Source: a virus
Direction: 5' to 3' (one strand)
UHGV virus genome: UHGV-1982450
Length of the DNA: 21,444 nucleotides
Shown here: in pieces, positions 2,183 through 20,889 of the stretch
How the letters are laid out: each line of letters starts with the position of its first letter
Numbering within the stretch: position 1 is the stretch's first letter
Position numbers and translations under genes: made by a program
Notes under the pieces: generated by a model
Told to the model about the DNA's origin: nothing
Databases searched by the model: none
The model's input: only the letters and a program-made list of their open reading frames with translations

Positions 2183-2611
2183 ATGTATCGTATCAAAAAT
2201 ATGGATGTGAAAATTACGATTCTACAGGTGGAAGTCGCGAACCTGCGTCCGAACCCCTGGAATACCAACTCCGTTGGGGCGCAAAACTTCGAAAAACTGA
2301 AAGGTTCCATCGAAAAGTTGGGCTTTTTTAAGCCAATTCTGGCGCGAGAGCTGGACGGCGGCATTTTTGAGATTCTCGGTGGCGAACATCGCTGGCGTGC
2401 CGCGATGGAGCAGGGCATTTCAACGGTTCCCGTCATCTCCGTGGGCAAAATTAACGACCTGGTGGCCAAACAGATGTTCCTCGTCGACAACGAGCGCTAC
2501 GGCGAAGACGATCAGGTCGCTTTGCAGCGCTTAATCGAAGAAATCCAGTCTGAAATCGACTACCGGTTACCCGAAACTGCTGCTGGCGCCTCGCCATCGC
2601 ATGTTTCCTAA
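2183..2611 (+). CDS. ParB-like nuclease domain (ParB/Srx fold) protein
   Basis: ParB N-terminal domain signature FEILGGEHRWRAA with the surrounding conserved hydrophobic pattern. Confidence 0.75.
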   Translation: MYRIKNMDVKITILQVEVANLRPNPWNTNSVGAQNFEKLKGSIEKLGFFKPILARELDGGIFEILGGEHRWRAAMEQGISTVPVISVGKINDLVAKQMFLVDNERYGEDDQVALQRLIEEIQSEIDYRLPETAAGASPSHVS

Positions 2612-3251
2612 GCTGAAGCCAACCACCAATACCACCGTGGCCAACCAGTATTGGGGGCGGTACGTGAACAACAACTTTGCGGTGATCAGCCGTTCCGTTG
2701 TGGACACTCAGTACCGCGGTGTCGGCGTCTCCTATCGAATGATTAACCTGGTTAGCAGGATGCACGACCGGCCAATCATCGAGATCCAGTCGTCGATGAG
2801 CAAATACAACCCGTTCGCCATGAAAGCAGGGTTCCAGTTCATCCGTCCGGAGCGTCCGAAGAGCTATGAGAGTGCGTTGCGCGTCTTCCAGCGTCATTTC
2901 CGTTCCGACCCTGGCGACAACGAAGCGATCGTCAAAGAGCTGTTTGCCATGAGTGAGTCTCGCCGTCGTCGTGCGCTGCGTGATCTGGTCGCTGACTACC
3001 ACAAGAACAGTTCCCTGGCCAAAGCCGGGCGTAATCGTGGCACGACGATTCAGGACATTGCCGACAGCCTGGTGGACGAGGCCAGCATCGTGAAGCTGCT
3101 CAAGGACATTCACAACCTGAGCTTCACGTCTCCGCTGTATGGCGTGTACCGAAACCCGGACTTTGGTCGTCAGCTGCCGGACACGCTGCCACTGCTGGCA
3201 TTCGACAAACAGCCTTTGAATAAACCTCTTGAAATTGCATTACCGGCATAA
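2601..3251 (+). CDS. Hypothetical protein; the N-terminal part carries a GNAT-like motif A/B pattern (QYRGVGVSYRMINLV ... NPFAMKAGFQF)
   Basis: 216-aa ORF overlapping the ParB-like ORF by 11 nt in a different frame. Frame 0 is open only from 2535, so it cannot extend further upstream. No good Shine-Dalgarno before 2601. Confidence 0.5.
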   Translation: MFPKLKPTTNTTVANQYWGRYVNNNFAVISRSVVDTQYRGVGVSYRMINLVSRMHDRPIIEIQSSMSKYNPFAMKAGFQFIRPERPKSYESALRVFQRHFRSDPGDNEAIVKELFAMSESRRRRALRDLVADYHKNSSLAKAGRNRGTTIQDIADSLVDEASIVKLLKDIHNLSFTSPLYGVYRNPDFGRQLPDTLPLLAFDKQPLNKPLEIALPA

Positions 3252-3260
3252 GGATTTGCC

Positions 3261-3527
3261 ATGACGTTGACCGACAAACAAAAAGACATCATCAAAACCA
3301 TCAATTTAGGCCATGAGCGTGGGCATCTGCTCGATCTGGACGAGCTGCTTGAAGTGCTGCCGTACAAAACGACCAAACAGAGTATGCAGTTCTCTATCCG
3401 CGCACTGGTGAAAAAGGGGCTGGTGGAGAAAGGAATGTGCCGCCAGCGCGGTGATTCCGGCTACCACCGTCGCACGCTGGGACTGACCACGTTAGGTCGT
3501 GCCAGAGCCAAATTACTGGTGATGTAA
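3261..3527 (+). CDS. Hypothetical small protein, possible winged-helix DNA-binding protein
   Basis: Shine-Dalgarno AAGGA 6-7 nt upstream of the ATG. Helix-turn-wing pattern LVKKGLVEK; weak. Confidence 0.45.
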   Translation: MTLTDKQKDIIKTINLGHERGHLLDLDELLEVLPYKTTKQSMQFSIRALVKKGLVEKGMCRQRGDSGYHRRTLGLTTLGRARAKLLVM

Positions 3528-3548
3528 GTCGGTCTGGGAGCCAGTTTG

Positions 3549-3611
3549 AGAGCCTGCTTCCGTATATATAAATACTAAGTGACTTATTAAATATATACGG
3601 AAGCAGGCTCT
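3549..3611. repeat. Perfect 21-bp inverted repeat (arms 3549-3569 and 3591-3611) around a 21-nt AT-rich spacer; a degenerate copy lies at 11519-11570
   Basis: AGAGCCTGCTTCCGTATATAT ... ATATATACGGAAGCAGGCTCT read directly. Intergenic, upstream of the terminase small subunit gene. No downstream U-tract. Confidence 0.8.
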
Positions 3612-3641
3612 GAATACTCCCCAGCCCGGTTTTAAACACCC

Positions 3642-3682
3642 AGAAAACAAATTGGTTAGGCACTGAATTAAACAAGTTGTTT
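3642..3682. promoter_or_regulatory. Two adjacent copies of a dyad motif AGAAAACAA(A/G)TTG(T/G)TT (3642-3657 and 3668-3682), 41 bp upstream of terS
   Basis: AAACAA-N-TTGTTT palindrome; the same motif recurs upstream of the parA-like and DnaB-like genes. Confidence 0.4.
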
Positions 3683-3722
3683 AGGAGCGCAAGGATGCGC
3701 TCTGAGTGTTTTAGAGGGATCT

Positions 3723-4364
3723 ATGACTATAGAAAAAGACGAGAGCAAAACTCGCCTGACACCAGCTGAGTGGGCAGAAGCCGAAGCGAAGTGGACTTCC
3801 GGCGAATACACACTCTCCAAGCTGGAGGAAGAGTACGGCATTCGTCGTGAAACGCTCTCCAGACATTTCAAAAAGCGTGGATTAGAGAAAGGCGCGGACT
3901 CCGTTGGGAAGATGGTGCGCGAGTCGCTCAAATCCGACGCAGAGCTGCGTGCGAAGGCGCGTGCAGAGAAAATCGAAGAGCGCCGGACTCGTTACGACGA
4001 TTGGGCGTTCGCACTCGGTCGTATGGTGATGCATGAGGTGGCCATAGCCAAGAAGGACGGCAGGCCACTGGCAGCCATCGAAGATGACCTGAAGAGTCTC
4101 CAGCGTGCCAGCGGCACACTCGCTAAGTGCTTCGAAATATCGTCGAAAGCGCTCGGTATGGATCGCGTGGAGAACGAGGACGACGAAATCCCGAACCTGG
4201 TATTTGGCGAACTTACGCCTTCCCAGGTGGCGCAGCTGCGTAAGGAAGATGATGAGCCGGATCTGATTGATGACGATCTGCTTGAGTCACTCGAAGAGGA
4301 AGCACTGAGCGAAGCTGAGGGCGATTCTGAAGCGTCTGGTGATGAAAGTGATGGGAGCGTCTGA
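3723..4364 (+). CDS. terS: Terminase small subunit (putative)
   Basis: Lies immediately upstream of the terminase large subunit with a 2-nt gap. HTH-like N-terminus, central helical region and strongly acidic C-terminal tail. Shine-Dalgarno GAGGG before the ATG. The call rests mainly on position and architecture. Confidence 0.65.
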   Translation: MTIEKDESKTRLTPAEWAEAEAKWTSGEYTLSKLEEEYGIRRETLSRHFKKRGLEKGADSVGKMVRESLKSDAELRAKARAEKIEERRTRYDDWAFALGRMVMHEVAIAKKDGRPLAAIEDDLKSLQRASGTLAKCFEISSKALGMDRVENEDDEIPNLVFGELTPSQVAQLRKEDDEPDLIDDDLLESLEEEALSEAEGDSEASGDESDGSV

Positions 4365-4366
4365 CT

Positions 4367-5623
4367 ATGGCCATCCCGTCGTCTCTGAGTCTCGTACAGC
4401 TGCATTCTGGGCAGATGCAAGTCTTCCAGTCGCCACATCGTTTCAAAGTGGTGTGTGCGGGTCGACGCTGGGGTAAATCCCGGTTGTCGATCTCCACCAT
4501 CATCCGCGCGGCAGCCAAAGAGAAGAAGCAACGTGTCTGGTATGTCGCACCGACTTACCAGATGGCTCGCCAGATCTTGTGGGATGACCTGCAGGAAGTT
4601 CTGCCGCGCAAATGGGTTCGTAAGAAAAACGACACCACGATGACCATCGTGCTGAAGAACGGCTCTGAAATCGCGCTGAAAGGTGCGGATAAGCCCGATA
4701 CGCTTCGTGGTGTGGCACTGCACTTTGTGGTGCTCGATGAATTTCAGGATATGAAGCCTGACACCTGGTACAAGGTACTGCGTCCGACACTGTCCTCCAC
4801 CCGTGGCGGTGCGCTGATCATCGGTACGCCAAAAGGCTTCTCCGAGTTCCACAAGCTGTGGACTATCGGTCAGAACAAAGATTTGCAACGCAAGGGGCAG
4901 TGGAAGAGCTGGCAGTTCGTTACGGCCGATTCTCCGTTCGTACCGAGCGCGGAAATCGAAGCAGCGAAGAACGATATGGACCCTAAATCGTTCGCACAGG
5001 AATACCTGGCCAGCTTCGAAAACATGTCCGGACGCGTTTACTACCCGTTCGACCGCAATGTGCATGTGAAGCCACTCCAGTTCAATCCGAAACTGCCGAT
5101 CTGGGTTGGTCAGGACTTCAACATCGACCCTATGTCATCGGTCATCCTGCAACCGCAGCCAAATGGTGAACTGTGGGCTGTGGACGAATTGGTGTTGTTC
5201 TCTTCTAACACGGCTGAAGTGTGTGACGAGCTGGAGCGTCGATACTGGCGCTGGAAATCTCAGGTCACTATCTTTCCTGACCCGGCAGGTGCGTATCGCC
5301 AGCACGCACGCGGCGAATCTGACGTCGACATCTTCAAAGAGAAAGGTTTCCTTCGAGTCGATTATCCGAAGAAGCACCCGCCGATCGCAGACCGTGTTAA
5401 CGCAGTGAACCGCATGTTGATGAGTGCCTCGGGCGAAACCCGGTTGTACATCGATCCGAAGTGCAAACACCTCATCGACTCGCTGGAGAAGGTGATCTAC
5501 AAGCCAGGCTCACGCGATATGGATAAGACTGGCGGCATCGAACACAGTGCGGATGCGTTGGGTTATCCGGTTCATCGTAGGTATCCGGTGAAAAATCGTG
5601 TTATTCTTGGTGGATCTAGATAG
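4367..5623 (+). CDS. terL: Terminase large subunit (ATPase plus nuclease)
   Basis: Walker A-like VVCAGRRWGKS, Walker B-like FVVLDEFQD, and a C-terminal nuclease region with the VGQDFNIDPMS acidic motif. Confidence 0.9.
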   Translation: MAIPSSLSLVQLHSGQMQVFQSPHRFKVVCAGRRWGKSRLSISTIIRAAAKEKKQRVWYVAPTYQMARQILWDDLQEVLPRKWVRKKNDTTMTIVLKNGSEIALKGADKPDTLRGVALHFVVLDEFQDMKPDTWYKVLRPTLSSTRGGALIIGTPKGFSEFHKLWTIGQNKDLQRKGQWKSWQFVTADSPFVPSAEIEAAKNDMDPKSFAQEYLASFENMSGRVYYPFDRNVHVKPLQFNPKLPIWVGQDFNIDPMSSVILQPQPNGELWAVDELVLFSSNTAEVCDELERRYWRWKSQVTIFPDPAGAYRQHARGESDVDIFKEKGFLRVDYPKKHPPIADRVNAVNRMLMSASGETRLYIDPKCKHLIDSLEKVIYKPGSRDMDKTGGIEHSADALGYPVHRRYPVKNRVILGGSR

Positions 5624-5638
5624 GTAAGTACTTACCTA
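5621..5638. promoter_or_regulatory. 18-bp perfect palindrome TAGGTAAGTACTTACCTA spanning the terL stop codon, 19 nt before the portal start
   Basis: Read directly. A related sequence TAGATAAGTAAGTACATACCTA occurs at 11654-11675 upstream of the ORF starting at 11689. Confidence 0.4.
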
Positions 5639-5656: not shown

Positions 5657-7231
5657 ATGGAATTGACTGACAAGCAAATCAAAGACCTTGTGGCACGACG
5701 CCACCCTGAATATGAGAAGAAAAAAGAACATTGGGACTTCCTCGCCAGCACCTACGCTGGCGGGCGTGCCTGGTTCAACGACAATATCTTCCGTTACTTC
5801 AAAGAGGGCGATCAGGAGTTCAAAGAGCGCCTGGAACGCGCTTATCGCTTCAACCATACGCGCGAAGTGGTAAACCTCATCAACAAATACCTCTTCAAAG
5901 AGGTCATTCACCGCAACACTGATGAAGCACCGGAGCAGATCCGCAATTTCTGGAAGCGAGCCACGCGCCAGAACGCCTCCATCGATGCGTTTATGGCGGC
6001 TATCGATCTGCAATCATCCATTTATGGCCGTATCTGGGTTGTCGTGGATAGCACGATGAACGTCGATGTTGAGTCTGTTGCAGACGAGAAGAAAAATGAT
6101 GCGCGTGCCTACGCTTACTGGATTTCGCCGCAGCAGCTGCTTGATGTTGCCTGGGATGAAGACGGCAATATGTTGTGGGCGCTGATTGTTGAAATCGCGC
6201 GCGACGACGAAGATCCGTTCACTTCAACCGGGCAGGAATACCAGCGTTACCGTCTGTGGACGCAAAACGAGTGGTATCTGTTCCGTGAAGAAGTGAAGAA
6301 GGGTTCCGGAAATAGCGGTCGCCGTCAGGCCAAAGTCGTTCTGGAGGATAGCGGCCAGCATAATCTGGGCGTGGTGCCGGTGTTCCCGGTGGATTGCATT
6401 GGTGAAAGCGAGTCTCCGTATTTTAGCCCGTCGTTGATTGACGATATTGCCTATCTTGATCGCGCCGTGGCCAACTACCTGTCGAACCTTGACGCGATTA
6501 TTCAGGATCAGACATTCAGCCAGTTAGCGATTCCGGTTCAGTCCCTGCTGCCGGGCGATGAAAACCACACCAAAGTGCTCGAAATGGGGACAAAACGTGT
6601 CTTCACCTTCGATTCTGAGAGCGGTAATCAGCCATTCTATCTGTCTCCAGACCCGAAACAGGCTCAGATGATCATCACCACGATTAAGACGGTGATTAAT
6701 GAGATCTACCATTCCGTTGGTGTGGCTGGTGAGCGAACCAAGCAGGATAACGCGCAGGGTATCGACAACTCTTCGGGGGCAGCGAAGATGTACGACTTCC
6801 AACGTATTAACAGTCTGTTGGTGACAAAAGCAGAGCGCCTCGAAAGGGCAGAACGCCAAATGATGGAGTTGGCTGCGAAATGGATGGGCATCGAATTGGA
6901 TGAAGACCACTCTCTGATCGCTTACCCGGAGAGTTTCGATATTCGTGGTCTGACTGACGAATTTGCCGTCGCTGAGAAATTGTCGCTGTTACAGGCGCCT
7001 GATTCTGTACGTCGTCATCAGATGGAAATGCTCATAGAAAAGATCTTCCCGAATATTTCCGAAGCGATGCAAAAGGAATTTAAAAAAGATCTCTTGAAAT
7101 TTCCTCTAAAAAATGCTCCTGGCGCCCTTGAAAATAAGTCAGTACTTACTTATGATTGCGATACAGTCCAAGAAAGCGGACAAGATCAACCCCGAGGGAA
7201 TGGGGACTCATCTACTCAAGAGACCGAGTGA
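5657..7231 (+). CDS. Portal protein (putative)
   Basis: 524-aa protein immediately downstream of terL with a strong Shine-Dalgarno (AAAGGAAAA). Size and acidic C-terminus are typical of portals. Called mainly on synteny. Confidence 0.7.
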   Translation: MELTDKQIKDLVARRHPEYEKKKEHWDFLASTYAGGRAWFNDNIFRYFKEGDQEFKERLERAYRFNHTREVVNLINKYLFKEVIHRNTDEAPEQIRNFWKRATRQNASIDAFMAAIDLQSSIYGRIWVVVDSTMNVDVESVADEKKNDARAYAYWISPQQLLDVAWDEDGNMLWALIVEIARDDEDPFTSTGQEYQRYRLWTQNEWYLFREEVKKGSGNSGRRQAKVVLEDSGQHNLGVVPVFPVDCIGESESPYFSPSLIDDIAYLDRAVANYLSNLDAIIQDQTFSQLAIPVQSLLPGDENHTKVLEMGTKRVFTFDSESGNQPFYLSPDPKQAQMIITTIKTVINEIYHSVGVAGERTKQDNAQGIDNSSGAAKMYDFQRINSLLVTKAERLERAERQMMELAAKWMGIELDEDHSLIAYPESFDIRGLTDEFAVAEKLSLLQAPDSVRRHQMEMLIEKIFPNISEAMQKEFKKDLLKFPLKNAPGALENKSVLTYDCDTVQESGQDQPRGNGDSSTQETE

Positions 7232-7253: not shown

Positions 7254-8021
7254 ATGAATCTGTGGCAAATGCTTATGGCCCGTCGTGGCCTGATGGATGT
7301 AGCCGAAGCGCATGAGCGCGGCGGCGCTGGTGGCGGTGCTCCTGCTGGAGACAATGAGCAGAGCATTCAAGACCCAGGCAAACAGGGCGAGCAAAAAGAG
7401 CAACCGAAGGGTGACGACGATGAGTATGCCGGTATGACTCAGGAAGAGTTGCTGGCAGAACTGCGTAAGTCTAAGAAAGCCGGTGCTGATCTGTTGAAAG
7501 AGAACATGAAGCGCAAGGAGAAAGAGCGCACATTGGCCGATCAGCTGGCTCAGTACGGTGATATTGACCCGACGCGTGCTCGTCAGCTTCTCGAAGCTGA
7601 ACAAGCCGCAGAAACCGCACGTCGGGAGGCGGAGCAGGCTGAACTGGAACGTCGTGGTGAGTTCGATGCTGTGAAAAAGCAGATGATCGAAGCACACCAG
7701 ACTGAACTGGCACAGCGCGACGAACGCTACTCCGCTCTGGAGAGCGAGAACGCCGCACTGAAGGCTCAACTGGTCGAAATGACTGTTGGTGTTTCCTTCA
7801 GCAGTTCTGCTTTCCTGCGTGACAAAGTTCTGATGACTCCGGCTATTGGCCTTGCACAAATTGCTGACGTTATGCCTCAAGTTTCTGCCGCAATGGATAA
7901 AGCGCAAGGCAATATCTCCAGTGGAGATACGGTACGCATCATCTTTGGCGTAGCTACCATTCTTGTGGCAGCATTCATTGCCTGGTCCCAGGTTCGCAAG
8001 CACCAGAAAGGATTAGTGTAA
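7254..8021 (+). CDS. Coiled-coil protein with a C-terminal transmembrane anchor (possibly scaffold- or lysis-related; function unknown)
   Basis: Long charged heptad-rich helical region (EAEQAAETARREAEQAELERR) and a C-terminal hydrophobic helix IIFGVATILVAAFIAW. Confidence 0.5.
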   Translation: MNLWQMLMARRGLMDVAEAHERGGAGGGAPAGDNEQSIQDPGKQGEQKEQPKGDDDEYAGMTQEELLAELRKSKKAGADLLKENMKRKEKERTLADQLAQYGDIDPTRARQLLEAEQAAETARREAEQAELERRGEFDAVKKQMIEAHQTELAQRDERYSALESENAALKAQLVEMTVGVSFSSSAFLRDKVLMTPAIGLAQIADVMPQVSAAMDKAQGNISSGDTVRIIFGVATILVAAFIAWSQVRKHQKGLV

Positions 8022-8023
8022 GT

Positions 8024-8275
8024 ATGTTCGACGGCCTGTTGTTCAAAATGAAATCCGCTTTGTTCACTCTGGCCGCCGTCATTCTAGTCCTTGTCGGCGC
8101 ATACTCCTATGGCGGGTATATGGCCAGACGCAGTATGGAAGAGAAAGAACGGCGGGAAGATAACAAGCGTCTTCAAAGCACAGTGGAAGTGGTGAATGAG
8201 ACGAACAGTGAAATACGTCAGAAAGATGCTTCTGCCATTCATCGTGAGCTGCATGATAAGTGGGTGCGTAATTAA
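8024..8275 (+). CDS. Putative i-spanin-like protein (Rz-like: N-terminal TM helix plus short periplasmic coiled coil)
   Basis: N-terminal TM helix ALFTLAAVILVLVGAY followed by a charged helical segment. Its 3' end overlaps a lipoprotein ORF in another frame. Confidence 0.4.
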   Translation: MFDGLLFKMKSALFTLAAVILVLVGAYSYGGYMARRSMEEKERREDNKRLQSTVEVVNETNSEIRQKDASAIHRELHDKWVRN

Positions 8276-8443: not shown

Positions 8444-8965
8444 TTATTCTTCGAACAATTTTTCGATAGATTTTGTTGGATAGAACAAAGAACGATCGTT
8501 GTTACCAACCAGCTGGATAAAGCCCAAACTTTTATAAAACGCCCTGGCTTTATCGTTCAACGCCTCAACGAAAAGCCCATGAATGCCTACCGCAAGAGAT
8601 GCATTGTACACAACACGCATTGCGTGAGTTACAAGCATTGAGCCAAGCCCCTGACCTTGAAGAGATTTGTCCAAAGCCAGTCTGCCTAAAGTGATACTTG
8701 GGACATGCCGATAAGGCACTTTCTTTTGCTGACTCTTTGAAGGTAAGGTTTCTTTCTCAAAGCAGCTGCCTGACAAAGTGTAATAACCTAATACCTTTGG
8801 TATTTCTTCTTTAGTGCAAAGCACATAAGCGCGAAGAATTTTTCCTTCATGCTGTCTTTTTAAGTGGTTGGTCAAAAATGCGTTTAGCGACTCTTCGCCG
8901 CAATCAAAACCGTTTAGATCATAATCTTTCTCTCCAGAGAAAATCTCGATCGTCGTATTGCTCAC
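8444..8965 (-). CDS. GNAT-family acetyltransferase toxin of the TacT/AtaT/KacT type (aminoacyl-tRNA acetylating toxin family)
   Basis: Family-typical motifs FDCG, LGRLALDKSLQGQGLG and YKSLGF. Lies immediately downstream of, and co-oriented with, a DUF1778-type antitoxin gene. Confidence 0.9.
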   Translation of the reverse strand: MSNTTIEIFSGEKDYDLNGFDCGEESLNAFLTNHLKRQHEGKILRAYVLCTKEEIPKVLGYYTLSGSCFEKETLPSKSQQKKVPYRHVPSITLGRLALDKSLQGQGLGSMLVTHAMRVVYNASLAVGIHGLFVEALNDKARAFYKSLGFIQLVGNNDRSLFYPTKSIEKLFEE

Positions 8966-8972
8966 GAGTAAA

Positions 8973-9242
8973 TTACTCCATGCTTTTCAGACGATTGGCA
9001 GCTCGTTTCAGCTTGTCGTTCGGTGCCGGAGGATTGCTTATAGCATCCATAACCAGATTCCAGGACTCTTCACTTAGAACCAGTCTACGGTGTTGCTCTA
9101 TCACCTTCACGGCACGTTCGGATGCACTGCTAACCATGAACTGGGTAATGCTCTGGTTAGACATTGCGGCAGCTTCCTCGATGATGCTTTTATCGTCATC
9201 GGTTAATCTCAAATCGATGCGCTGCTTTTTCAGTGCGGACAT
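8973..9242 (-). CDS. DUF1778-family antitoxin (TacA-like RHH antitoxin)
   Basis: 89-aa protein whose N-terminal RHH region (RIDLRLTDDDKSIIEEAAAMSNQSITQFMV) and C-terminal toxin-binding helix match the DUF1778 pattern. Separated by 7 nt from the GNAT toxin gene. Confidence 0.85.
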   Translation of the reverse strand: MSALKKQRIDLRLTDDDKSIIEEAAAMSNQSITQFMVSSASERAVKVIEQHRRLVLSEESWNLVMDAISNPPAPNDKLKRAANRLKSME

Positions 9243-9510: not shown

Positions 9511-9526
9511 AGAAAACAAGTTGTTT
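9511..9526. promoter_or_regulatory. Dyad motif AGAAAACAAGTTGTTT, 36 bp upstream of the parA-like start
   Basis: Same AAACAA-N-TTGTTT palindrome as at 3668-3682 and 12440-12455. Confidence 0.4.
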
Positions 9527-9561
9527 CATACGACAATAATTCACGCAAAGGAAACTCACCA

Positions 9562-11406: not shown

Positions 11407-11518
11407 TATTGCATCTCTTAGCTACTGACTAATGCGTTCTATTTTACACATAAGTTTTTAATCAATTTTACAGGCTCAAAGTGTAGAGCTTCTGGGTGTC
11501 TAAGACGACAAGTTATGC

Positions 11519-11583
11519 CTGTTTCTGTATATAAATAATAAGTAACTTATTAAATATATACGGAAGCAGGTCTTTTAAAAGAC
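11519..11583. repeat. Degenerate copy of the 3549-3611 inverted repeat (shared core TATATAAATA-TAAGT-ACTTATTAAATATATACGGAAGCAGG) immediately followed by a 14-bp perfect palindrome GTCTTTTAAAAGAC (11570-11583)
   Basis: Read directly. Intergenic, between the divergent GIY-YIG gene and the ORF starting at 11689. Confidence 0.7.
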
Positions 11584-11688
11584 ACCCACCAGAACAACTC
11601 CCTTCCGTTTCCACTTCCCAAAAATATCTCCAGTCGCTATGATTCGCTCACTTAGATAAGTAAGTACATACCTATTAAAGGGAATCAT

Positions 11689-12439: not shown

Positions 12440-12455
12440 AGAAAACAAATTGTTT
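12440..12455. promoter_or_regulatory. Dyad motif AGAAAACAAATTGTTT, 20 bp upstream of the DnaB-like helicase start
   Basis: Same palindrome family as at 3642-3682 and 9511-9526. Confidence 0.4.
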
Positions 12456-12474
12456 AAGCACCAAAGGAAAGCAC

Positions 12475-15229: not shown

Positions 15230-16216
15230 TTGTCGTTCTTTGGGGGAGAAGTGAACATTGTAGATGCTCTTGTTCTCAAGAAGTTAATGAGCGTTGGTGA
15301 TGAAACTGTTCTGTCAATCTTAAAGTTTTCAGCGTACAGCGGAGTGTCAACACTCGAAGAACTGGTAGTTAACTCCTCCAATCTGAAAATCTCAAATGGT
15401 AAATCTCGAGCAACTCTCGAAAGTTTCTTCGACGCTGCGAACTTCCAGGCTCTCAGGGACGAAGTAAAAACAGAGATTGATTCGTTCAAAAATAAAGGAG
15501 TTGAGATTGTTATCTTCGGTTCGAAAAACTATCCAATTTCGTTATATGATCTCCCGAAACCTCCACCCTTTCTTTACTGTAAAGGCAATCTAAATCTCTT
15601 AGAGAATAGGCTTTCATTAGCTGTTGTAGGAACTCGTGAAAACACCCCCAAGGGTGAAACCCTAACGATTAAAACTATTCAAAAGTTTGCGACTTATGGC
15701 TTCACGATAGTCAGTGGACTTGCACTGGGTATCGATACAATTGCTCATCGCGCGGCATTAGATGCCAAAACACCAACGATTTCTGTTCTTGTCGATGTGG
15801 AGTCTATTTCTCCCGCAAGTAATCGGGAACTCGCTAAGGAAATATTGGACGAGGGCGGACTTCTAGTTGCAGAGAATGCACCAGGAACCAAAGCAATACC
15901 TGCGTTCTTTGCTAAGCGAGACAGGATACAAGCAGGTTTATCTACTGCCGTCTTTGCTATTGAAACTTCGATAGATGGTGGGACGATGCACGCAGTCAAA
16001 TCTGCTATCTCTATGATGCGTCCTGTCTTCGTTCCTGACGTACATAAAGCTAAGTATCCAGATCTTACTATCAAGGCAATTTCAGGAACTCAACAGCTAG
16101 TTAACGAAGGGAGGGCGATACCATACACGAGCGAATCTTATGAAGATATTCGTCTTCAATTAGAAGATATCGCGAGTTCATTTGGGTCGTTGAAAGCAAA
16201 AGGTGGCCTGCTGTGA
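15230..16216 (+). CDS. DprA/Smf-like (SLOG-type Rossmann) protein; candidate antitoxin or partner of the downstream PRTase fusion protein
   Basis: DprA signature LAVVGTR ... GFTIVSGLALGIDTIAHRAAL ... FAKRDRIQAGLSTAVFAIETSIDGGTMHA. Its stop overlaps the start of the next gene (GTGA). Start may be TTG at 15230 or GTG at 15251 (GGGGGAG Shine-Dalgarno). Confidence 0.85.
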   Translation: MSFFGGEVNIVDALVLKKLMSVGDETVLSILKFSAYSGVSTLEELVVNSSNLKISNGKSRATLESFFDAANFQALRDEVKTEIDSFKNKGVEIVIFGSKNYPISLYDLPKPPPFLYCKGNLNLLENRLSLAVVGTRENTPKGETLTIKTIQKFATYGFTIVSGLALGIDTIAHRAALDAKTPTISVLVDVESISPASNRELAKEILDEGGLLVAENAPGTKAIPAFFAKRDRIQAGLSTAVFAIETSIDGGTMHAVKSAISMMRPVFVPDVHKAKYPDLTIKAISGTQQLVNEGRAIPYTSESYEDIRLQLEDIASSFGSLKAKGGLL

Positions 16217-19200
16217 TAAAGGTCATCGTCCTCGATCTTGATGACACGCTTATTGATACATCAAGCCTCGAACCACTTCGGTTAGCTGGCCGATGGAGAG
16301 ACATACCCAGGTACTTTAATGGTTGTGTCATCAATCAGGACGTTGTCGGCCTTGTTACAACGGCTCGGTCGGTTGGAATCAAGGTTGCTATCTTCTCGAA
16401 TGCGCCTTCGAACTACGTTCAGGGGCTACTCAAACACTTCAGTATCACTGTTGATTATGTAGTAGCCTACCATGATGTAACGCAGCATAAGCCGAGCCCT
16501 GAGGGCGTTACTCGTATTCTCGAGTACTTCGGTGTTAGCGCCGACGAGTCAATTTATTTAGGAGATAGTAACCTAGATCGAGACGCTGCTTCCAATGCAG
16601 GAGTTGAGTTTTTCTCAGTAGATTGGGGTTCTGCCTCGGAGATCGATTCGTCACATAAGGGAATAAGCGGTCTCTCCGAGCTTATTGGAAAAAACTCGAC
16701 GCGGAGCTCCGCAAGAACTGGACGTTCTGAGTTAATACAATCTGGGAATAAACTTCATCTGGGATTCTATTTAGATGGTATCAAACAGGAAGTTTGGTCT
16801 TTCAAGGATAACAAGAATACTTCTGTTCGCCGCTGGGTTAACAAGACTGTTGAGCTAGCTTCTTCATTCCCAGCCATAGATATAGTTGTTCGAGCGTTAG
16901 GTCACGCTGAGCTTAGGGCTGAAGATGGCGATAAAGCATTAGATACCTTGGGCAAATCGCTGGCTGTTGCTTTAGGGGCTTCTTACCAACCTAAGATATT
17001 AGAGAAAGATCACGTATTAGATAAATCGACTAATTGCACTGCAGCACAAAGACTCCACCAGGTCAGAGGTGCCTATAAAGCCGATTTTGATTCAATAGAA
17101 GCTAATTCAAATCCGACATTTCTGATCATTGACGACGTATTAACTTCGGGGGCTACAACTGATGAGATAACACGCTGTCTATCTCAAGCTTTTCCGAATT
17201 CAAGTATTTACATTTTTACGTTGGTTAAAACTCTCTATAGATTGGAGCTATGCACTGACAGCCAAGAACAACAACACAATAACCAACTGTTTTCAGATTT
17301 GTACAACCCAATCATCGACTCGCTGGCGGACGAAAGTGAACTATCTAGACATGTCAGGTCGAAGTCTAGTAGCAGGCTTGTAAGCAAGAAGTTTTCTGCT
17401 AACTACGCGAGAACCAACCATAACTTCATTTTCCACAATCTTCTCCAGTATTCTATCTCGTCTGAAGCGGCGTCTGGACAGCTATTTGCAGCAATTCAAG
17501 TTCTTAAGAATATGCTTCAGAGAGGGAAGCCAACAATAGCCTCGCGGAAGCTGAGGAAGGCATTTGGCATTGAACTGGATCAGAACGTTCTTAATACACC
17601 AGCTCAGGCTCTTGTGTCAGATAAGCCGGTTTTTTGGAATAGATTGATTCGAGGCCACAAACAGTCAGGAAACTACCCAGCGAAAAGGTTTTTTGATGAG
17701 CTGATACCGAAGTATTTCGGTAAGTACATTTTTGTAAAACAACTAATGCTCCCTGAAGTCCAGATTTACGATATGACTCAGGTCTACGTTGAACAATTCC
17801 AGAACCGACAGGTAGATTTTTACATTCCTCAAGTTGGTTTAATTATTGAGATAGACGGTCAGCAGCACCAAAATTCTCAGCATTTAGATGAAATGAGGGA
17901 TGCGTTTACCGAAAGCCTGGGACTGAAGACTGTTCGATTCACTGTTCAAGAACTGGCATCTGAGAACCAGTCATTTATCAGTAAGATAAATTCGATTATT
18001 TCTCACATTCAGATCGTTGATGGTCTAGAGCGAAATGGTGTCCTAACGCCTCCTAATGGTATTTCTTTATTGAATTACCAAGAGGCTTACGAAAATGGAG
18101 TCGATGTTACTGACTCGCGATTGAGGCTGACCTCGGCGTTGCGTTTCCAGATACTGTTATTAGAGCTTCTTGAACGCGGTCAGATCAGACTAGGGGAGTT
18201 GAAAAAACTATTCATAGTCAATCGTGATGGAACTGATTTTGCTGAAGCGGCACTGGACGACCTGAACGATTTGTTATCGAATATCTTTCGTCTCATCGGC
18301 ATTGAAGAAAAGCGAATTGAGGTTGCGCTGATCGAATCAGATGAGCTTCCGAGCGAACGGTCTGGTGAAAATATATTCATCGACTTCAGCTTACTGGAGC
18401 GTTATGACGATTCCTTTCAAGTTAACCAAGACGTCATATATTCACGTACGGATTACTTCGATTTCTATCGAAACTTCGAAGATTCTGATGCTGTTTCAAT
18501 AGAAACCAGTCAATTGATTGACTATGACTTTTTTGAGCTTTCATGTAGTAACCCCATTACCTACAAGCTAGATCTTAGCCCAGGCAGCGAGCAGAGAGAG
18601 TCGCTGAGATACTTCCTCAGCAACCTGTTTCTACCATACCTAGAGGATGTAGATTTCAGGGAAGGGCAGGTTGGTATCATAGGATCTGCACTTTCGAAAA
18701 ACGGCACAATAGGATTGCTGCCTACAGGTTCGGGTAAGTCGATTTGTTACCAGCTGTCTGCGGTCCTGCAACCAGCCGTTAGCTTTGTCGTGTGCCCGAT
18801 AAAAAGTTTGATGTATGACCAGAAAGCAGATTTGGATAGCATCGGCTTCACTCGAAGCAATTTTATTACAAGTGATTTGAAGGCAGGAGAGAAGGCCAAA
18901 GTTCAGAGAGATTTCGGACGTGGTAAGTACTTCTTCGTTTTTATATCGCCTGAGCGATTCCAAACCCATGCGTTTAGAAAAGAGATGTTGGCTATCGGAC
19001 TAGATCTCTCATTTGCCTACGCGGTGATCGATGAAGCTCACTGTTTGTCTGAGTGGGGACATGATTTCAGGACTTCTTATCTGAACCTGGCAAATACAAT
19101 CGAACGGTTTGCTCCCAGTGCGAGTTATATAGGTCTAACGGCAACAGCATCAGTTAACGTCCTAAAGGATATTCAAACAGAGTTTGATATCCCAGATGAT

Positions 19201-20889
19201 TTTGTCCGTACCCCCATGGACTTCACTCGCGAGGAACTATCATTCCACGTCATTGACGATAAAGGCCGTAAAGGTGATGCAGTCGTCGAGCTTGTTTCTG
19301 AAATGGAGGGTAAATGGAATTCAGATGGGGAAGACGGCAATAAGGCGGGGATCATATTCACTTCTACCGTCAACGGAGCTAAGGGGTGTTATAGCTTAGC
19401 GGGCCGAATATCAACACTCTTGAAGATGGATGTTAGATATTTTTCGGGGTCGGCTCCGAAAATGGGTGGATTGCAGGGAGAGGCTTTCGATAGATATAAG
19501 CGCCAAGTTCAAGACGATTTTAAAGAAAATAAATACCGCCTACTTACTGCCACTAAGGCATTCGGAATGGGCGTGAATAAGGGAAATATTGCCTATACGG
19601 TTCACTTCGGAATACCTGGGTCGATGGAGGCCTTGTATCAGGAAGCTGGCAGGGCAGGGCGAGATAAAAAACTATTCAAGGAAGTACCCGCAGATTGCTA
19701 TGTGCTTCTCACAAAAGAGCCCAATTCAGCTATTCTCGACAAGATTTGGGACGCTAGCACGAACGTCAAAGATCTGAAGGAGTACGTGAAGTCATTGAGT
19801 CGCGATAGCGACCTGAACACAAATCTATTCCTGATGACAAACGGCTTGGGCACAATCAATGATGAGTTCAAGTTGATGGCAAATGTATACGAATTTTTTA
19901 AGTACAATCAGGAACACAACACGGTGACCATTACTGCCAGGCAGTTTGGTACGGAAAAGTTTAAATTGGAAAAGGCTATCTACCGCCTTTCTCAATTAGG
20001 TATTGTCTCTGACTGGGTAATCGAAGACTTTTTTAATGGAACGCTCTCTGTCGAGTTCCAGTGCCTATCGGAAGAAGGCCTGGAAAAGAAAATTGAGCAT
20101 ACCGTCAGAAAGTATGATCCTGAGTTTAAGCTCGCTGATGTGTTCAGTAGTGATAACCAGTACTACAAAATTCTCTGCGACAAGCTGAGAAAAGGGTCTA
20201 TCGATAAATCGCAATTTATCTTTCTTGTTCTTTTACTTTGGTCCTATGACCATTTTGTCTACAACCGCCGCCAGTCACAGAAGAACGTTTATGAACACTG
20301 TAGTTTATTTGCTGAAGGCAGGATGGATGGTAAAGAATTTAAGGAGAAGTTAGAGGGTTATTTCAGACACGACAAGTCGAGCCAACTTTTGCTCAATATG
20401 GCTGAGAATTCTGTGTCGGTGAAGTTATGGCCATCAGTTTTTTTTGAAACTGATGAAGAAGAGGGCTCGGAACATTTAGTAAGCAGCGAGAAGATGACGA
20501 TCCTACGAGGTCAGATTTCTCGATTCCTAGAGTCATACAAAGATAATGCATTCTTGAACTACTTGAGTGGTGTGCTGCGACTAGCTTCCGATGAGTTTGA
20601 TGATGCAGATGGAGAGCGAAGAATGGCATCGTCATTTGATCGGTTGATCAGTGATAATAGGGATGAAGCACTAGAGCTGGTCCGAAAAACTATGCAGTTA
20701 AAACCAATATTTTCTGAAAATGCGCGAAGTCGCTTTGCTCGTTTGGTCCATGAGAAATTTGAAGATTTGGATTTTCTTGGGGAAGTAAATGAAGAGCTAG
20801 GAGATCCGTTCTCCTATCACACTTTGTTAGCTCCACTGGCAATTAGACTTGAAAAACTTACCAGCCTATACAAGGGGATTAATTGGTGA
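16213..20889 (+). CDS. 1558-aa multidomain protein: N-terminal HAD-like phosphatase, ComF-like PRTase, Vsr/DUF559-like endonuclease-fold module, RecQ-family SF2 helicase core, and an uncharacterised C-terminal region of about 390 aa
   Basis: HAD motifs DLDDTL, FSNA, HKP, GDSNLDRD (aa 1-140). PRTase PRPP loop FLIIDDVLTSGATT (nt 17119-17160). Vsr-like pattern DFYIPQVGLIIEIDGQQH ... TVRF (about nt 17710-17997). RecQ motifs LLPTGSGKS, VVCPIKSLMYDQ, VIDEAHCLSEWGHDFR, LTATA, ATKAFGMGVNK, YQEAGRAGRD (about nt 18610-19692). Confidence 0.9.
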   Translation: MIKVIVLDLDDTLIDTSSLEPLRLAGRWRDIPRYFNGCVINQDVVGLVTTARSVGIKVAIFSNAPSNYVQGLLKHFSITVDYVVAYHDVTQHKPSPEGVTRILEYFGVSADESIYLGDSNLDRDAASNAGVEFFSVDWGSASEIDSSHKGISGLSELIGKNSTRSSARTGRSELIQSGNKLHLGFYLDGIKQEVWSFKDNKNTSVRRWVNKTVELASSFPAIDIVVRALGHAELRAEDGDKALDTLGKSLAVALGASYQPKILEKDHVLDKSTNCTAAQRLHQVRGAYKADFDSIEANSNPTFLIIDDVLTSGATTDEITRCLSQAFPNSSIYIFTLVKTLYRLELCTDSQEQQHNNQLFSDLYNPIIDSLADESELSRHVRSKSSSRLVSKKFSANYARTNHNFIFHNLLQYSISSEAASGQLFAAIQVLKNMLQRGKPTIASRKLRKAFGIELDQNVLNTPAQALVSDKPVFWNRLIRGHKQSGNYPAKRFFDELIPKYFGKYIFVKQLMLPEVQIYDMTQVYVEQFQNRQVDFYIPQVGLIIEIDGQQHQNSQHLDEMRDAFTESLGLKTVRFTVQELASENQSFISKINSIISHIQIVDGLERNGVLTPPNGISLLNYQEAYENGVDVTDSRLRLTSALRFQILLLELLERGQIRLGELKKLFIVNRDGTDFAEAALDDLNDLLSNIFRLIGIEEKRIEVALIESDELPSERSGENIFIDFSLLERYDDSFQVNQDVIYSRTDYFDFYRNFEDSDAVSIETSQLIDYDFFELSCSNPITYKLDLSPGSEQRESLRYFLSNLFLPYLEDVDFREGQVGIIGSALSKNGTIGLLPTGSGKSICYQLSAVLQPAVSFVVCPIKSLMYDQKADLDSIGFTRSNFITSDLKAGEKAKVQRDFGRGKYFFVFISPERFQTHAFRKEMLAIGLDLSFAYAVIDEAHCLSEWGHDFRTSYLNLANTIERFAPSASYIGLTATASVNVLKDIQTEFDIPDDFVRTPMDFTREELSFHVIDDKGRKGDAVVELVSEMEGKWNSDGEDGNKAGIIFTSTVNGAKGCYSLAGRISTLLKMDVRYFSGSAPKMGGLQGEAFDRYKRQVQDDFKENKYRLLTATKAFGMGVNKGNIAYTVHFGIPGSMEALYQEAGRAGRDKKLFKEVPADCYVLLTKEPNSAILDKIWDASTNVKDLKEYVKSLSRDSDLNTNLFLMTNGLGTINDEFKLMANVYEFFKYNQEHNTVTITARQFGTEKFKLEKAIYRLSQLGIVSDWVIEDFFNGTLSVEFQCLSEEGLEKKIEHTVRKYDPEFKLADVFSSDNQYYKILCDKLRKGSIDKSQFIFLVLLLWSYDHFVYNRRQSQKNVYEHCSLFAEGRMDGKEFKEKLEGYFRHDKSSQLLLNMAENSVSVKLWPSVFFETDEEEGSEHLVSSEKMTILRGQISRFLESYKDNAFLNYLSGVLRLASDEFDDADGERRMASSFDRLISDNRDEALELVRKTMQLKPIFSENARSRFARLVHEKFEDLDFLGEVNEELGDPFSYHTLLAPLAIRLEKLTSLYKGINW

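What the first reader, a model, noticed from the sequence alone, without database searches (positions are those of the whole stretch)
3549..3611. 21-bp perfect inverted repeat with a degenerate second copy: candidate processing site, terminator or protein-binding dyad
The arms AGAGCCTGCTTCCGTATATAT and ATATATACGGAAGCAGGCTCT are perfectly complementary around a 21-nt AT-rich spacer. A second copy (11519-11570) shares about 45 nt of core sequence but has two mismatches in the left arm, and is followed by the 14-bp palindrome GTCTTTTAAAAGAC. Both copies are intergenic and upstream of plus-strand operons. A 21-bp RNA duplex would be a good RNase III substrate; there is no U-tract typical of an intrinsic terminator.
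Basis: seen in the sequence. Interest (0 to 1): 0.5.

Follow-up and report, generated by a model that had tools for sequence, protein, structure and literature searches.

The report
Repeated boundary hairpin of SSU5-like phage-plasmids
The 63-bp perfect palindrome is real and is one of three sister copies that sit just after the last gene of an operon in SSU5-like phage-plasmids. It most likely folds in the mRNA into a long hairpin that stops or insulates transcription, which is an ordinary job done by an unusually long, conserved and so far undescribed element.

Summary
Arms 3549-3569 and 3591-3611 are perfectly complementary; none are expected by chance. A second copy lies at 11517-11576.

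The window is a degraded SSU5-like phage-plasmid carried on E. coli IncF plasmids. In about 800 related plasmids and phages the element occupies exactly three conserved positions:
- upstream of terS
- upstream of the replication module
- after a methyltransferase gene

Each copy starts about 21-27 nt after a stop codon and precedes the next operon.

Evidence for an mRNA terminator or insulator hairpin:
- Copies at the second and third positions are followed at once by a conserved T-run.
- Arm mismatches are mostly G·U on the + strand (41 G·U against 10 mismatches; the reverse on the - strand).
- A sister lineage has canonical terminators at all three positions.
- Published RNA-seq of the relative Cyrano shows a 100- to 1000-fold expression drop across the replication-module copy, and only 2- to 6-fold across the terS copy, which lacks a proper U-tract.

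RNase III cleavage is plausible but untested.

Rival readings remain open. The SSU5 GenBank record is opened inside the loop of the terS copy, so it could be a packaging site. The copies also evolve in concert and carry an operator-like centre, so a protein-binding dyad is possible.

The element is known in kind and new as a family member. Interest is modest.

The parts
3549..3611 (+). Copy 1 of the element (the 'class 1', terS-proximal copy). It has 21-bp perfect arms at 3549-3569 and 3591-3611, and a 21-nt A+T spacer containing TAAGTGACTTA.
   Evidence: The copy starts 21 nt after the stop codon of the 88-aa gene 3261-3527 and lies 112 nt before the terS-like gene at 3723. It is conserved at this position in 73 of 75 IMG/VR loci.
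3530..3633 (+). Extended nested dyad around copy 1. The outer arms are GGTCTGGGAG (3531-3540) and CTCCCCAGCCCGG (3617-3629), followed by TTTT at 3630-3633.
   Evidence: RNA fold of -52.5 kcal/mol, z = -8.9. The outer GTCTGGG/CCCAGAC pair recurs around all three classes.
11517..11576 (+). Copy 2 ('class 2', replication-module copy). The hairpin spans 11517-11571 with two G·U pairs in the GC-rich stem base, and is directly followed by the T-run TCTTTT (11571-11576).
   Evidence: At the orthologous copies, 11 of 12 tail variants keep at least 4 T in the first 8 nt. The Cyrano orthologue lies between CYRAN_30 and CYRAN_31, where expression drops 100- to 1000-fold.
11570..11583 (+). Its first half is the T-run of copy 2.
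   Evidence: This tail is one of several variants (TCTTTTTCTATG, TCTTTTACGACC and others) that share only the T-run.
11615..11643 (+). Sigma-70-like promoter candidate TTCCCA-17-TATGAT, downstream of copy 2 and upstream of the first replication-module gene (11689).
   Evidence: a consensus match only. The TATGAT/TATCAT hexamer is conserved across class 2 variants, and a similar CTCCAGNCGCTNTRRAT box follows class 3 in SSU5.
3684..3713 (+). Second, small hairpin GGAGCGCAAGGATGCGCTCT followed by GAGTGTTTTA, about 10 nt before the terS start. It may be a leader terminator or attenuator of the late operon.
   Evidence: -12.6 kcal/mol. The stem is conserved and the loop varies in relatives.

Best explanation
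The palindrome belongs to a family of long hairpin-forming elements that mark the ends of the three large rightward transcription units of SSU5-like phage-plasmids.

Proposed mechanism. When the element is transcribed on the + strand, its GC-rich stem base (CCUGCUUCYG/CGGAAGCAGG) and A+U-rich upper stem fold into a hairpin of about 55-100 nt.
- At the replication-module and methyltransferase copies the stem is followed directly by a U-tract. There the hairpin acts as a strong intrinsic terminator that keeps plasmid-maintenance transcription out of the lytic modules.
- At the terS copy (3549-3611 in this window) the inner stem has no U-tract, and only four U follow the outer stem. There it probably acts as a leaky terminator or 3'-end-protecting hairpin for the upstream operon. 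A perfect 21-bp duplex would also be a natural RNase III target.

Shown here: the anatomy, the conservation, the strand-biased pairing, the conserved T-runs, and the expression drop in a relative.

Inferred: that the hairpin itself causes the drop, that copy 1 is only partly terminating, and any RNase III cleavage.
For: 1. All copies fall into three syntenic positions, each about 21-27 nt after the stop codon of a co-oriented gene and 50-110 nt before the next operon.
2. T-runs directly follow the stem in 11 of 12 class 2 tail variants and 7 of 9 class 3 tail variants, although the sequence after the T-run differs. No class 1 variant has 5 or more T in the first 8 nt.
3. Across 65 unique sequences, the GC-rich arm pairs score WC 534, G·U 41, mismatch 10 on the + strand, but G·U 10, mismatch 41 on the - strand. 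All class 2 deviations are + strand G·U. C-G, U·G and U-A states all occur at one pair.
4. In the pCAV-like lineage (L210) the terS position has a hairpin followed by U8, and the other two positions carry canonical small terminators. Aeromonas has a canonical terminator at the terS position.
5. Published RNA-seq of Cyrano (PMC9928086, supplementary file 2) gives log2(FPKM+5) of about 10.3 for CYRAN_30 and about 2.6 for CYRAN_31. The 193-nt gap between them holds the class 2 palindrome (25-bp stem, -42.4 kcal/mol) followed by UCUUUU. Across class 1 the values are about 5.6 for CYRAN_123 and about 3.8 for CYRAN_1.
6. The centre can change sequence while pairing is kept (Cyrano class 2; L145, L173 and L189).
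Against: - The arms and centre are more conserved in sequence than a plain terminator needs, and copies within a genome evolve in concert.
- Some copies carry C·A, U·C or G·A mismatches; for example SSU5 class 3 is CTTCCG/CAGACG.
- An outer dyad lies beyond the T-run at classes 2 and 3, so it would not be in a terminated RNA.
- In the pCAV-like lineage the loop plus right-arm homologue persists at two positions without a left arm.
- Copy 1 lacks a canonical U-tract in all 39 variants.
- The RNA-seq is gene-level, from a relative rather than this plasmid, and does not map 3' ends.
- The linear SSU5 record ends inside the loop of copy 1.
Confidence: 0.55

Rival explanations
1. Packaging site. 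The terS-proximal copy would be the cos or pac site, or the genome terminus, where terminase cuts in the A+T spacer. The other two copies would be uncut paralogues.
For: - The linear SSU5 record ends at ...GACTTATTA and begins AATATATACGG, which corresponds to window 3589|3590, inside the spacer and 133 nt upstream of terS. This is a lambda-like cos-terS layout.
- The Acinetobacter AB-group relative has a single large palindrome, and it lies upstream of the terS region.
- All class 1 variants lack a U-tract.
Against: - In several genomes the class 1 and class 2 55-nt cores are identical, so the core cannot be a unique cut site.
- The break coincides with the loop/arm boundary, which is also where an assembler would break at an inverted repeat.
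- The Cyrano record's near-identical opening point appears to have been chosen to match SSU5, because Cyrano is a re-annotation of plasmid pLF82.
- The closest TerL relatives, at 25-40% identity, are T5-like, Jersey-like and mycobacteriophage terminases. The best PDB matches are the P74-26 and T4 gp17 ATPase domains. None is a classical cohesive-end family.
- The spacer is A+T-rich, which is unusual for cohesive ends.
- pCAV-like and Aeromonas relatives have terminators, not this palindrome, at the position.
- No paper held in the library reports SSU5 termini.
Confidence: 0.15
2. Double-stranded DNA site for a dimeric or multimeric protein. It could be an operator or roadblock, a dispersed centromere, or a lytic origin, with A+T centre melting or bending between conserved arms.
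For: - Arm sequences are conserved across E. coli, Salmonella, Klebsiella, Enterobacter and Yersinia plasmids (798 records), and the copies evolve in concert.
- The centre (TAAGTGACTTA) resembles a roughly 20-copy family of 20-bp palindromes, ATAGGTAAGTACTTACCTAT. That family is itself conserved as far as Acinetobacter and Aeromonas relatives.
- An outer dyad, GTCTGGG/CCCAGAC, surrounds all three classes.
- A right-arm homologue is retained without a left arm in L210.
- Dispersed palindromic centromeres are known in the phage-plasmid N15 (own knowledge).
Against: - There are no isolated half-sites or arrays anywhere else in SSU5 or the window.
- The left arm is systematically less conserved than the right, in the way G·U tolerance predicts.
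- The conserved T-runs have no role in this model.
- The centre is replaceable.
- The plasmid replication gene repA and the parA gene lie elsewhere.
Confidence: 0.2
3. No selected function. The palindrome would be kept perfect by template-switch (quasipalindrome) correction and spread by gene conversion between copies.
For: - Hybrid arm combinations (alleles CTTCCG, CGTCTG and CTTCTG in all pairings) suggest recombination among copies.
- Cores are identical within some genomes.
- Template switching at quasipalindromes is a known mutational process (own knowledge; PMC3820800, listed).
Against: - The three positions are conserved across hundreds of elements.
- T-runs are conserved while the flanks diverge.
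- Other lineages have functional equivalents (canonical terminators) at the same positions.
- There is a homologue in Acinetobacter.
- Expression drops sharply at the site.
Confidence: 0.05

Closest known systems
Intrinsic (Rho-independent) terminators, such as lambda tR' and T7 T-phi
   Same: - The stem base is GC-rich.
- A U-run lies directly 3' of the stem at copies 2 and 3.
- The element sits just after a stop codon and before the next promoter.
- RNA level drops sharply across the site in a relative.
   Different: - The stem is 17-25 bp with an A+U-rich upper half, and the total structure is 55-100 nt, against the usual 20-35 nt.
- Three paralogous copies share sequence and evolve in concert.
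- Copy 1 has no U-tract next to its inner stem.
- An outer dyad spans the T-run.
Phage RNase III processing sites and retroregulators (T7 R0.3-R18.5 sites, lambda sib)
   Same: - They are intergenic hairpins of about 20 bp or more.
- Several sequence-related copies occur per genome, between transcription units.
- A hairpin left at the mRNA 3' end can stabilise or destabilise the upstream message.
   Different: - T7 sites have characteristic internal loops that direct single cleavage, whereas here the stem is perfect.
- No cleavage data exist.
- Rfam has no matching family.
Lambda-type cos region (cosN dyad, then cosB, then the terS gene)
   Same: A dyad-symmetric site lies 110-180 bp upstream of the small terminase gene. 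The SSU5 record ends lie within it.
   Different: - There are three copies per genome, with identical cores in some genomes.
- The centre is A+T-rich.
- TerL does not belong to a cohesive-end family.
- No end-mapping evidence exists.
Dispersed palindromic centromere sites of the phage-plasmid N15 (own knowledge)
   Same: Several palindromes are scattered over a phage-plasmid genome at the heads of lytic or replication regions.
   Different: - N15 sites are short SopB-binding palindromes.
- Here the elements are 55-100 bp, strand-asymmetric and T-run-associated.
- No cognate ParB specificity is known.

Membership tests
Intrinsic terminator | Stable GC-rich stem-loop in the transcript | tested here: met
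   Copy 1 folds at -52.5 kcal/mol (z = -8.9). Copy 2 folds at -28.2 kcal/mol (z = -6.3). The stem base CCUGCUUCCG/CGGAAGCAGG has 7 G-C pairs out of 10.
Intrinsic terminator | U-tract of about 7-9 nt immediately 3' of the stem | tested here: inconclusive
   Copy 2 has UCUUUU followed by AAAA (4 U). Orthologues have UCUUUUUC or UUUUUU. Copy 1 has no U-tract after the inner stem in any of 39 variants, and only UUUU after the outer stem at 3630-3633. The tool's own scan, which limits loops to 3-8 nt, did not call either copy.
Intrinsic terminator | Lies downstream of a co-oriented gene, at the end of a transcription unit | tested here: met
   The elements start 21-27 nt after stop codons in the window (copy 1), SSU5 (all three copies) and Cyrano. 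In this window, copy 2 instead follows a - strand gene because of a rearrangement.
Intrinsic terminator | Transcripts end at the site | tested here: inconclusive
   Gene-level RNA-seq of the relative Cyrano shows a 100- to 1000-fold drop across class 2 and a 2- to 6-fold drop across class 1. There is no 3'-end mapping and no data for this plasmid.
RNase III processing site | About 20 bp or more of continuous dsRNA | tested here: met
   Copy 1 has 21 perfect pairs, or 24 with one mismatch. The Cyrano class 2 copy has about 25 pairs.
RNase III processing site | RNase III-dependent cleavage products | not testable with these tools
   This needs rnc+ and rnc- RNA end mapping, or in vitro cleavage.
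cos/pac packaging site | Adjacent to the terminase genes | tested here: met
   Copy 1 ends 112 nt upstream of the terS-like gene (phrog_867), which is followed by terL and the portal gene.
cos/pac packaging site | Unique recognition or cut sequence in the genome | tested here: not met
   SSU5-like genomes carry three copies. The class 1 and class 2 55-nt cores are identical in at least four genomes.
cos/pac packaging site | Virion DNA ends map to the site | tested here: inconclusive
   The SSU5 GenBank record is opened at window-equivalent 3589|3590. How those ends were set is not documented in any paper I could read, and an assembly break at the inverted repeat would look the same.
Protein-binding dyad (operator, centromere or origin) | Sequence-specific binding by a cognate protein | not testable with these tools
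   There is only indirect evidence: conserved arms, concerted evolution, and a centre that resembles a genome-wide 20-bp palindrome family.
Any Rfam family | Match at gathering score | tested here: not met
   There were 0 matches in the window at gathering threshold. At relaxed E-value only sub-threshold miRNA-precursor-like hairpin hits appeared.

The most novel reading that the evidence does not exclude
The hairpins may be more than passive terminators.

One possibility is that the apical TAAGT-N-ACTTA motif is a docking site for a conserved phage protein. That protein would also recognise the roughly 20-30 intercistronic 20-bp palindromes found from Acinetobacter to Enterobacteria. This would make the three elements regulated terminators, or gates, that switch the three modules between plasmid and lytic life.

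A second possibility, not exclusive of the first, is that the terS-proximal copy doubles as the terminase cut site that defines the virion DNA ends.
Probability: 0.2. Interest if true: 0.65.

Novelty: new member of a known kind. Interest (0 to 1): 0.35.

Why it matters
SSU5-like phage-plasmids are common in clinical Klebsiella, E. coli, Enterobacter and Salmonella, and include Yersinia pestis pMT1-type plasmids. The element is in 798 PLSDB plasmids and in 260 of 5,426 complete E. coli genomes, always on plasmids and never annotated.

These elements must keep about 70 kb of lytic genes silent while plasmid-maintenance genes and accessory 'moron' genes are highly expressed. Three strong, conserved boundary hairpins would be a simple way to insulate the modules.

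They are also useful landmarks for annotating module borders. They may also be where assemblies break and where modules are exchanged.

If the terS copy also proves to be the packaging site, it would define the still unknown genome ends of this phage group.

Tried and rejected
- Rfam gave nothing at gathering threshold, and only generic hairpin noise at relaxed E-value.
- Seven literature searches and five papers read for SSU5 termini, cos or pac sites, or palindromes in pHCM2/pMT1 found nothing on this element or on SSU5 ends. The SSU5 genome announcement is not held in the library.
- The terS-like protein has no PDB relative. TerL matches only the generic P74-26 and T4 gp17 ATPase domains.
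- Orienting loci by summed ORF length failed: 136 of 198 were ambiguous. I replaced it with tblastx of the flanks against SSU5 and the window.
- My own genome-wide terminator scan was far too permissive, with 218 calls on one strand, so I used it only anecdotally.
- RNAalifold on the mixed alignment captured only the GC-rich arms, because indels in the A+T centre spoil the alignment.
- Protelomerase-type telomere site: rejected, because the plasmid records are circular and no large recombinase gene is present.
- Recombinase (lox/dif-like) site: rejected, because three sites would delete or invert modules.
- Plasmid origin: rejected, because repA and its intergenic region lie elsewhere.
- Sigma-70 promoter inside the palindrome (TTGAGA at -35): rejected, because the hexamer is not conserved in relatives and the scan found none.
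- Checking the record starts of other SSU5-like phage genomes gave no independent end evidence. PhiR41_1 is circular and opened at a gene. vB_KpnS_p4727 is opened at an ATG 120 nt after the class 3 copy.

Full report
**Observation.** The window holds a perfect 21-bp inverted repeat (3549-3569 and 3591-3611) around a 21-nt A+T spacer. With up to three mismatches the arm occurs only at these two places and at 11554 on the minus strand. It occurs in none of 100 dinucleotide-preserving shuffles.

The second copy is as described. Positions 3565-3607 and 11528-11570 are 95% identical. Its left arm carries two C>T changes and one fewer TA. GTCTTTTAAAAGAC follows at 11570-11583.

- At copy 1 the dyad continues outward. 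GGTCTGGGAG (3531-3540) pairs with CTCCCCAGCCCGG (3617-3629), followed by TTTT (3630-3633). This gives a hairpin of about 100 nt at -52.5 kcal/mol, z = -8.9.
- At copy 2 a T-run (TCTTTT, 11571-11576) abuts the stem.

**Context.** The window is 100% identical to segments of E. coli IncF plasmids, and it is a degraded SSU5-like phage-plasmid.
- Copy 1 lies between an 88-aa gene (phrog_900) and the terS-like gene, terL and the portal gene.
- Copy 2 lies upstream of a phrog_2500 gene, a DnaB-like helicase and a primase.
- The head, tail and lysis block has been deleted. This left a scaffold-endolysin fusion ORF.

**A three-copy family.** SSU5 itself has three copies: at the junction of its linear record, at 33.45 kb and at 78.3 kb.

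I collected 75 loci through the terS-like protein and 119 through a two-arm DNA pattern in IMG/VR. Every copy whose flanks could be mapped to SSU5 or the window fell into the same three syntenic classes (one locus had no mappable flank):

| Class | Position | Unique variants |
|---|---|---|
| 1 | Upstream of terS | 39 |
| 2 | Upstream of the replication module | 25 |
| 3 | After the adenine methyltransferase gene | 27 |

Each copy begins about 21-27 nt after the stop codon of a co-oriented gene and is followed within 50-110 nt by promoter-like sequence and the next operon.

The element occurs in 798 PLSDB plasmids, from Klebsiella, Escherichia, Enterobacter, Yersinia, Salmonella and others. 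It also occurs in 260 of 5,426 complete E. coli genomes, only on plasmids and never annotated.

**RNA or DNA?** Several observations point to a + strand transcript structure.
- *T-runs.* A T-run directly follows the stem in 11 of 12 class 2 tail variants and 7 of 9 class 3 tail variants. It persists although the sequence beyond it differs (TCTTTTTCTATG, TCTTTTAAAAGA, TCTTTTACGACC, CTGTTTTGTATC, CTTTTTAAGACG). No class 1 variant has such a run.
- *Strand-biased pairing.* In 65 unique sequences the GC-rich arm pairs are WC 534, G·U 41, mismatch 10 when read on the + strand. Read on the - strand they are G·U 10, mismatch 41. All class 2 deviations are + strand G·U. One pair shows the series C-G, U·G, U-A. 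These counts are not phylogenetically independent.
- *Replaceable centre.* The centre can change while pairing persists, as in L145, L173 and L189 and in Cyrano class 2.
- *Equivalent terminators in other lineages.* In the pCAV-like plasmid L210 the terS position has a hairpin followed by U8, and the other two positions have canonical small terminators. In Aeromonas the terS position has a canonical terminator. The three positions are therefore operon ends.
- *Expression data.* Published gene-level RNA-seq of Cyrano, the SSU5-like phage-plasmid of E. coli LF82 (PMC9928086, supplementary file 2), gives the values below. They are log2(FPKM+5); I infer the pseudocount of 5 from the floor value of 2.32.

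| Site | Upstream gene | Downstream gene | Drop |
|---|---|---|---|
| Class 2 | CYRAN_30: 10.4, 10.2 (B6 samples) | CYRAN_31: 2.6, 2.7 | About 1000-fold (about 100-fold in MB6) |
| Class 1 | CYRAN_123: 5.5-6.6 | CYRAN_1 (terS): 3.7-5.6 | 2- to 6-fold |

The 193-nt gap between CYRAN_30 and CYRAN_31 contains the class 2 palindrome. It has a 25-bp stem (-42.4 kcal/mol) that starts 25 nt after the stop codon and is followed by UCUUUU.

**What does not fit a plain terminator.**
- *Concerted evolution.* Copies within a genome share lineage-specific variants, and the class 1 and 2 cores are identical in several genomes.
- *Hybrid arms.* Three arm alleles (CTTCCG, CGTCTG, CTTCTG) occur in all combinations. 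Some combinations give C·A, U·C or G·A mismatches, which suggests recombination between copies.
- *Outer dyad.* The pair GTCTGGG/CCCAGAC surrounds all three classes and lies beyond the T-run.
- *Operator-like centre.* TAAGTGACTTA resembles a 20-bp palindrome family, ATAGGTAAGTACTTACCTAT. That family has about 22 copies in SSU5, nearly all just after stop codons. A homologous family of about 30 copies occurs in an Acinetobacter phage-plasmid.
- *Acinetobacter relative.* That plasmid has one large three-tier palindrome upstream of its terS region and no T-run.
- *Orphan right arm.* In L210 the loop plus right-arm homologue persists at two positions without a left arm.

**The packaging rival.** The linear SSU5 record ends ...GACTTATTA and starts AATATATACGG. 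This is inside the spacer of copy 1 and 133 nt before terS.

That could mark a cos or pac cut. However:
- The break sits at the loop/arm boundary, where an assembly would also break.
- Cyrano's near-identical opening point appears to have been chosen to match SSU5, so it is not independent evidence.
- Other records are opened elsewhere.
- The core is not unique in the genome.
- TerL is related to T5-like, Jersey-like and T4/P74-26-type terminases rather than to cohesive-end families.
- No paper I could read documents the SSU5 termini.

I keep this rival at about 0.15.

**Conclusion.** The most likely reading (0.55) is a family of long + strand RNA hairpins that terminate or insulate transcription at the three module borders.
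- Copy 2 in this window (11517-11576) is a hairpin-plus-U-run terminator.
- Copy 1 (3549-3611) is the variant without a U-tract. It is probably leaky, and it is backed up by a second small hairpin with a T-run at 3684-3713.
- Its perfect 21-bp duplex makes RNase III processing plausible but unproven.

A double-stranded DNA protein-binding role (0.2) and a packaging role for copy 1 (0.15) remain open, and neither excludes the terminator reading. No Rfam family or publication describes the element. It is a new member of a known kind, of modest interest.

Noticed in passing
window 5620-5638, 7134-7152, 11656-11674 (also about 2164-2183); SSU5 (L006/L007), about 22 sites; Acinetobacter plasmid L204-L207, about 30 sites: A family of 20-bp palindromes with consensus ATAGGTAAGTACTTACCTAT (TAAGCGCTTA core in Acinetobacter, AGTAAGTGTTTACTTA in Aeromonas). 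Nearly all lie 1-40 nt after a stop codon and 15-60 nt before the next start codon. The family is conserved across very distant phage-plasmid lineages. It could be a genome-wide operator or 'stoperator'-like network, or a set of intercistronic RNA hairpins.
   Followed up: partly
window 3645-3660, 3670-3685, about 9513-9528, 12443-12458; 17 sites in SSU5: A second palindromic motif, AAACAANTTGTTTAGG, recurs 30-55 nt upstream of start codons (terS, parA, dnaB-like and many genes at 80-95 kb in SSU5). It looks like an operator or a phage-specific promoter element.
   Followed up: partly
window 3684-3713: A small hairpin, GGAGCGCAAGGATGCGCTCT, followed by GAGTGTTTTA lies about 10 nt before the terS ATG. 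The stem is conserved and the loop varies in relatives. It may be a leader terminator or attenuator of the late operon, which would imply control by antitermination.
   Followed up: partly
window 7254-8275 and 2183-3251: The element is a degraded phage-plasmid. ORF 7254-8021 fuses a scaffold N-terminus (phrog_7069/206) to an endolysin C-terminus (phrog_873) and is followed by an Rz-like gene, so the whole head-tail-lysis block is deleted. The ParB_N ORF (2183-2611) and the ABC-ATPase-like ORF (2601-3251) are truncated relative to SSU5_125-129.
   Followed up: partly
SSU5 record NC_018843, positions 103299|1 (equivalent to window 3589|3590): The linear GenBank record of phage SSU5 is opened inside the spacer of the terS-proximal palindrome, at the loop/right-arm boundary. 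The Cyrano record (OV696614) is opened 1 nt further on. Whether this is a physical end or an assembly artefact is undetermined.
   Followed up: partly
Class 2 copies in IMG/VR loci (e.g. L087-L201); window 11407-11516: The sequence to the left of the class 2 copy is highly variable between genomes (different accessory genes, on either strand), up to about 25 nt before the left arm. Everything to the right is conserved. The element therefore marks a sharp border between the variable accessory region and the replication module.
   Followed up: partly
Cyrano CYRAN_123 (orthologue of window 3261-3527): In published RNA-seq the 88-aa gene just upstream of copy 1 rises to log2 6.6 in macrophage samples, while its upstream neighbour CYRAN_122 stays at about 3. 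This suggests either an internal promoter or a stable 3' fragment protected by the hairpin.
   Followed up: no
window 8444-9242 (- strand) and 16213-20889: A GNAT-toxin/DUF1778-antitoxin pair (KacT-like) lies between the deleted structural block and parA. A 1558-aa ORF (annotated as HAD-family hydrolase plus helicase-related) is interrupted by IS1 in one of the identical plasmids.
   Followed up: no
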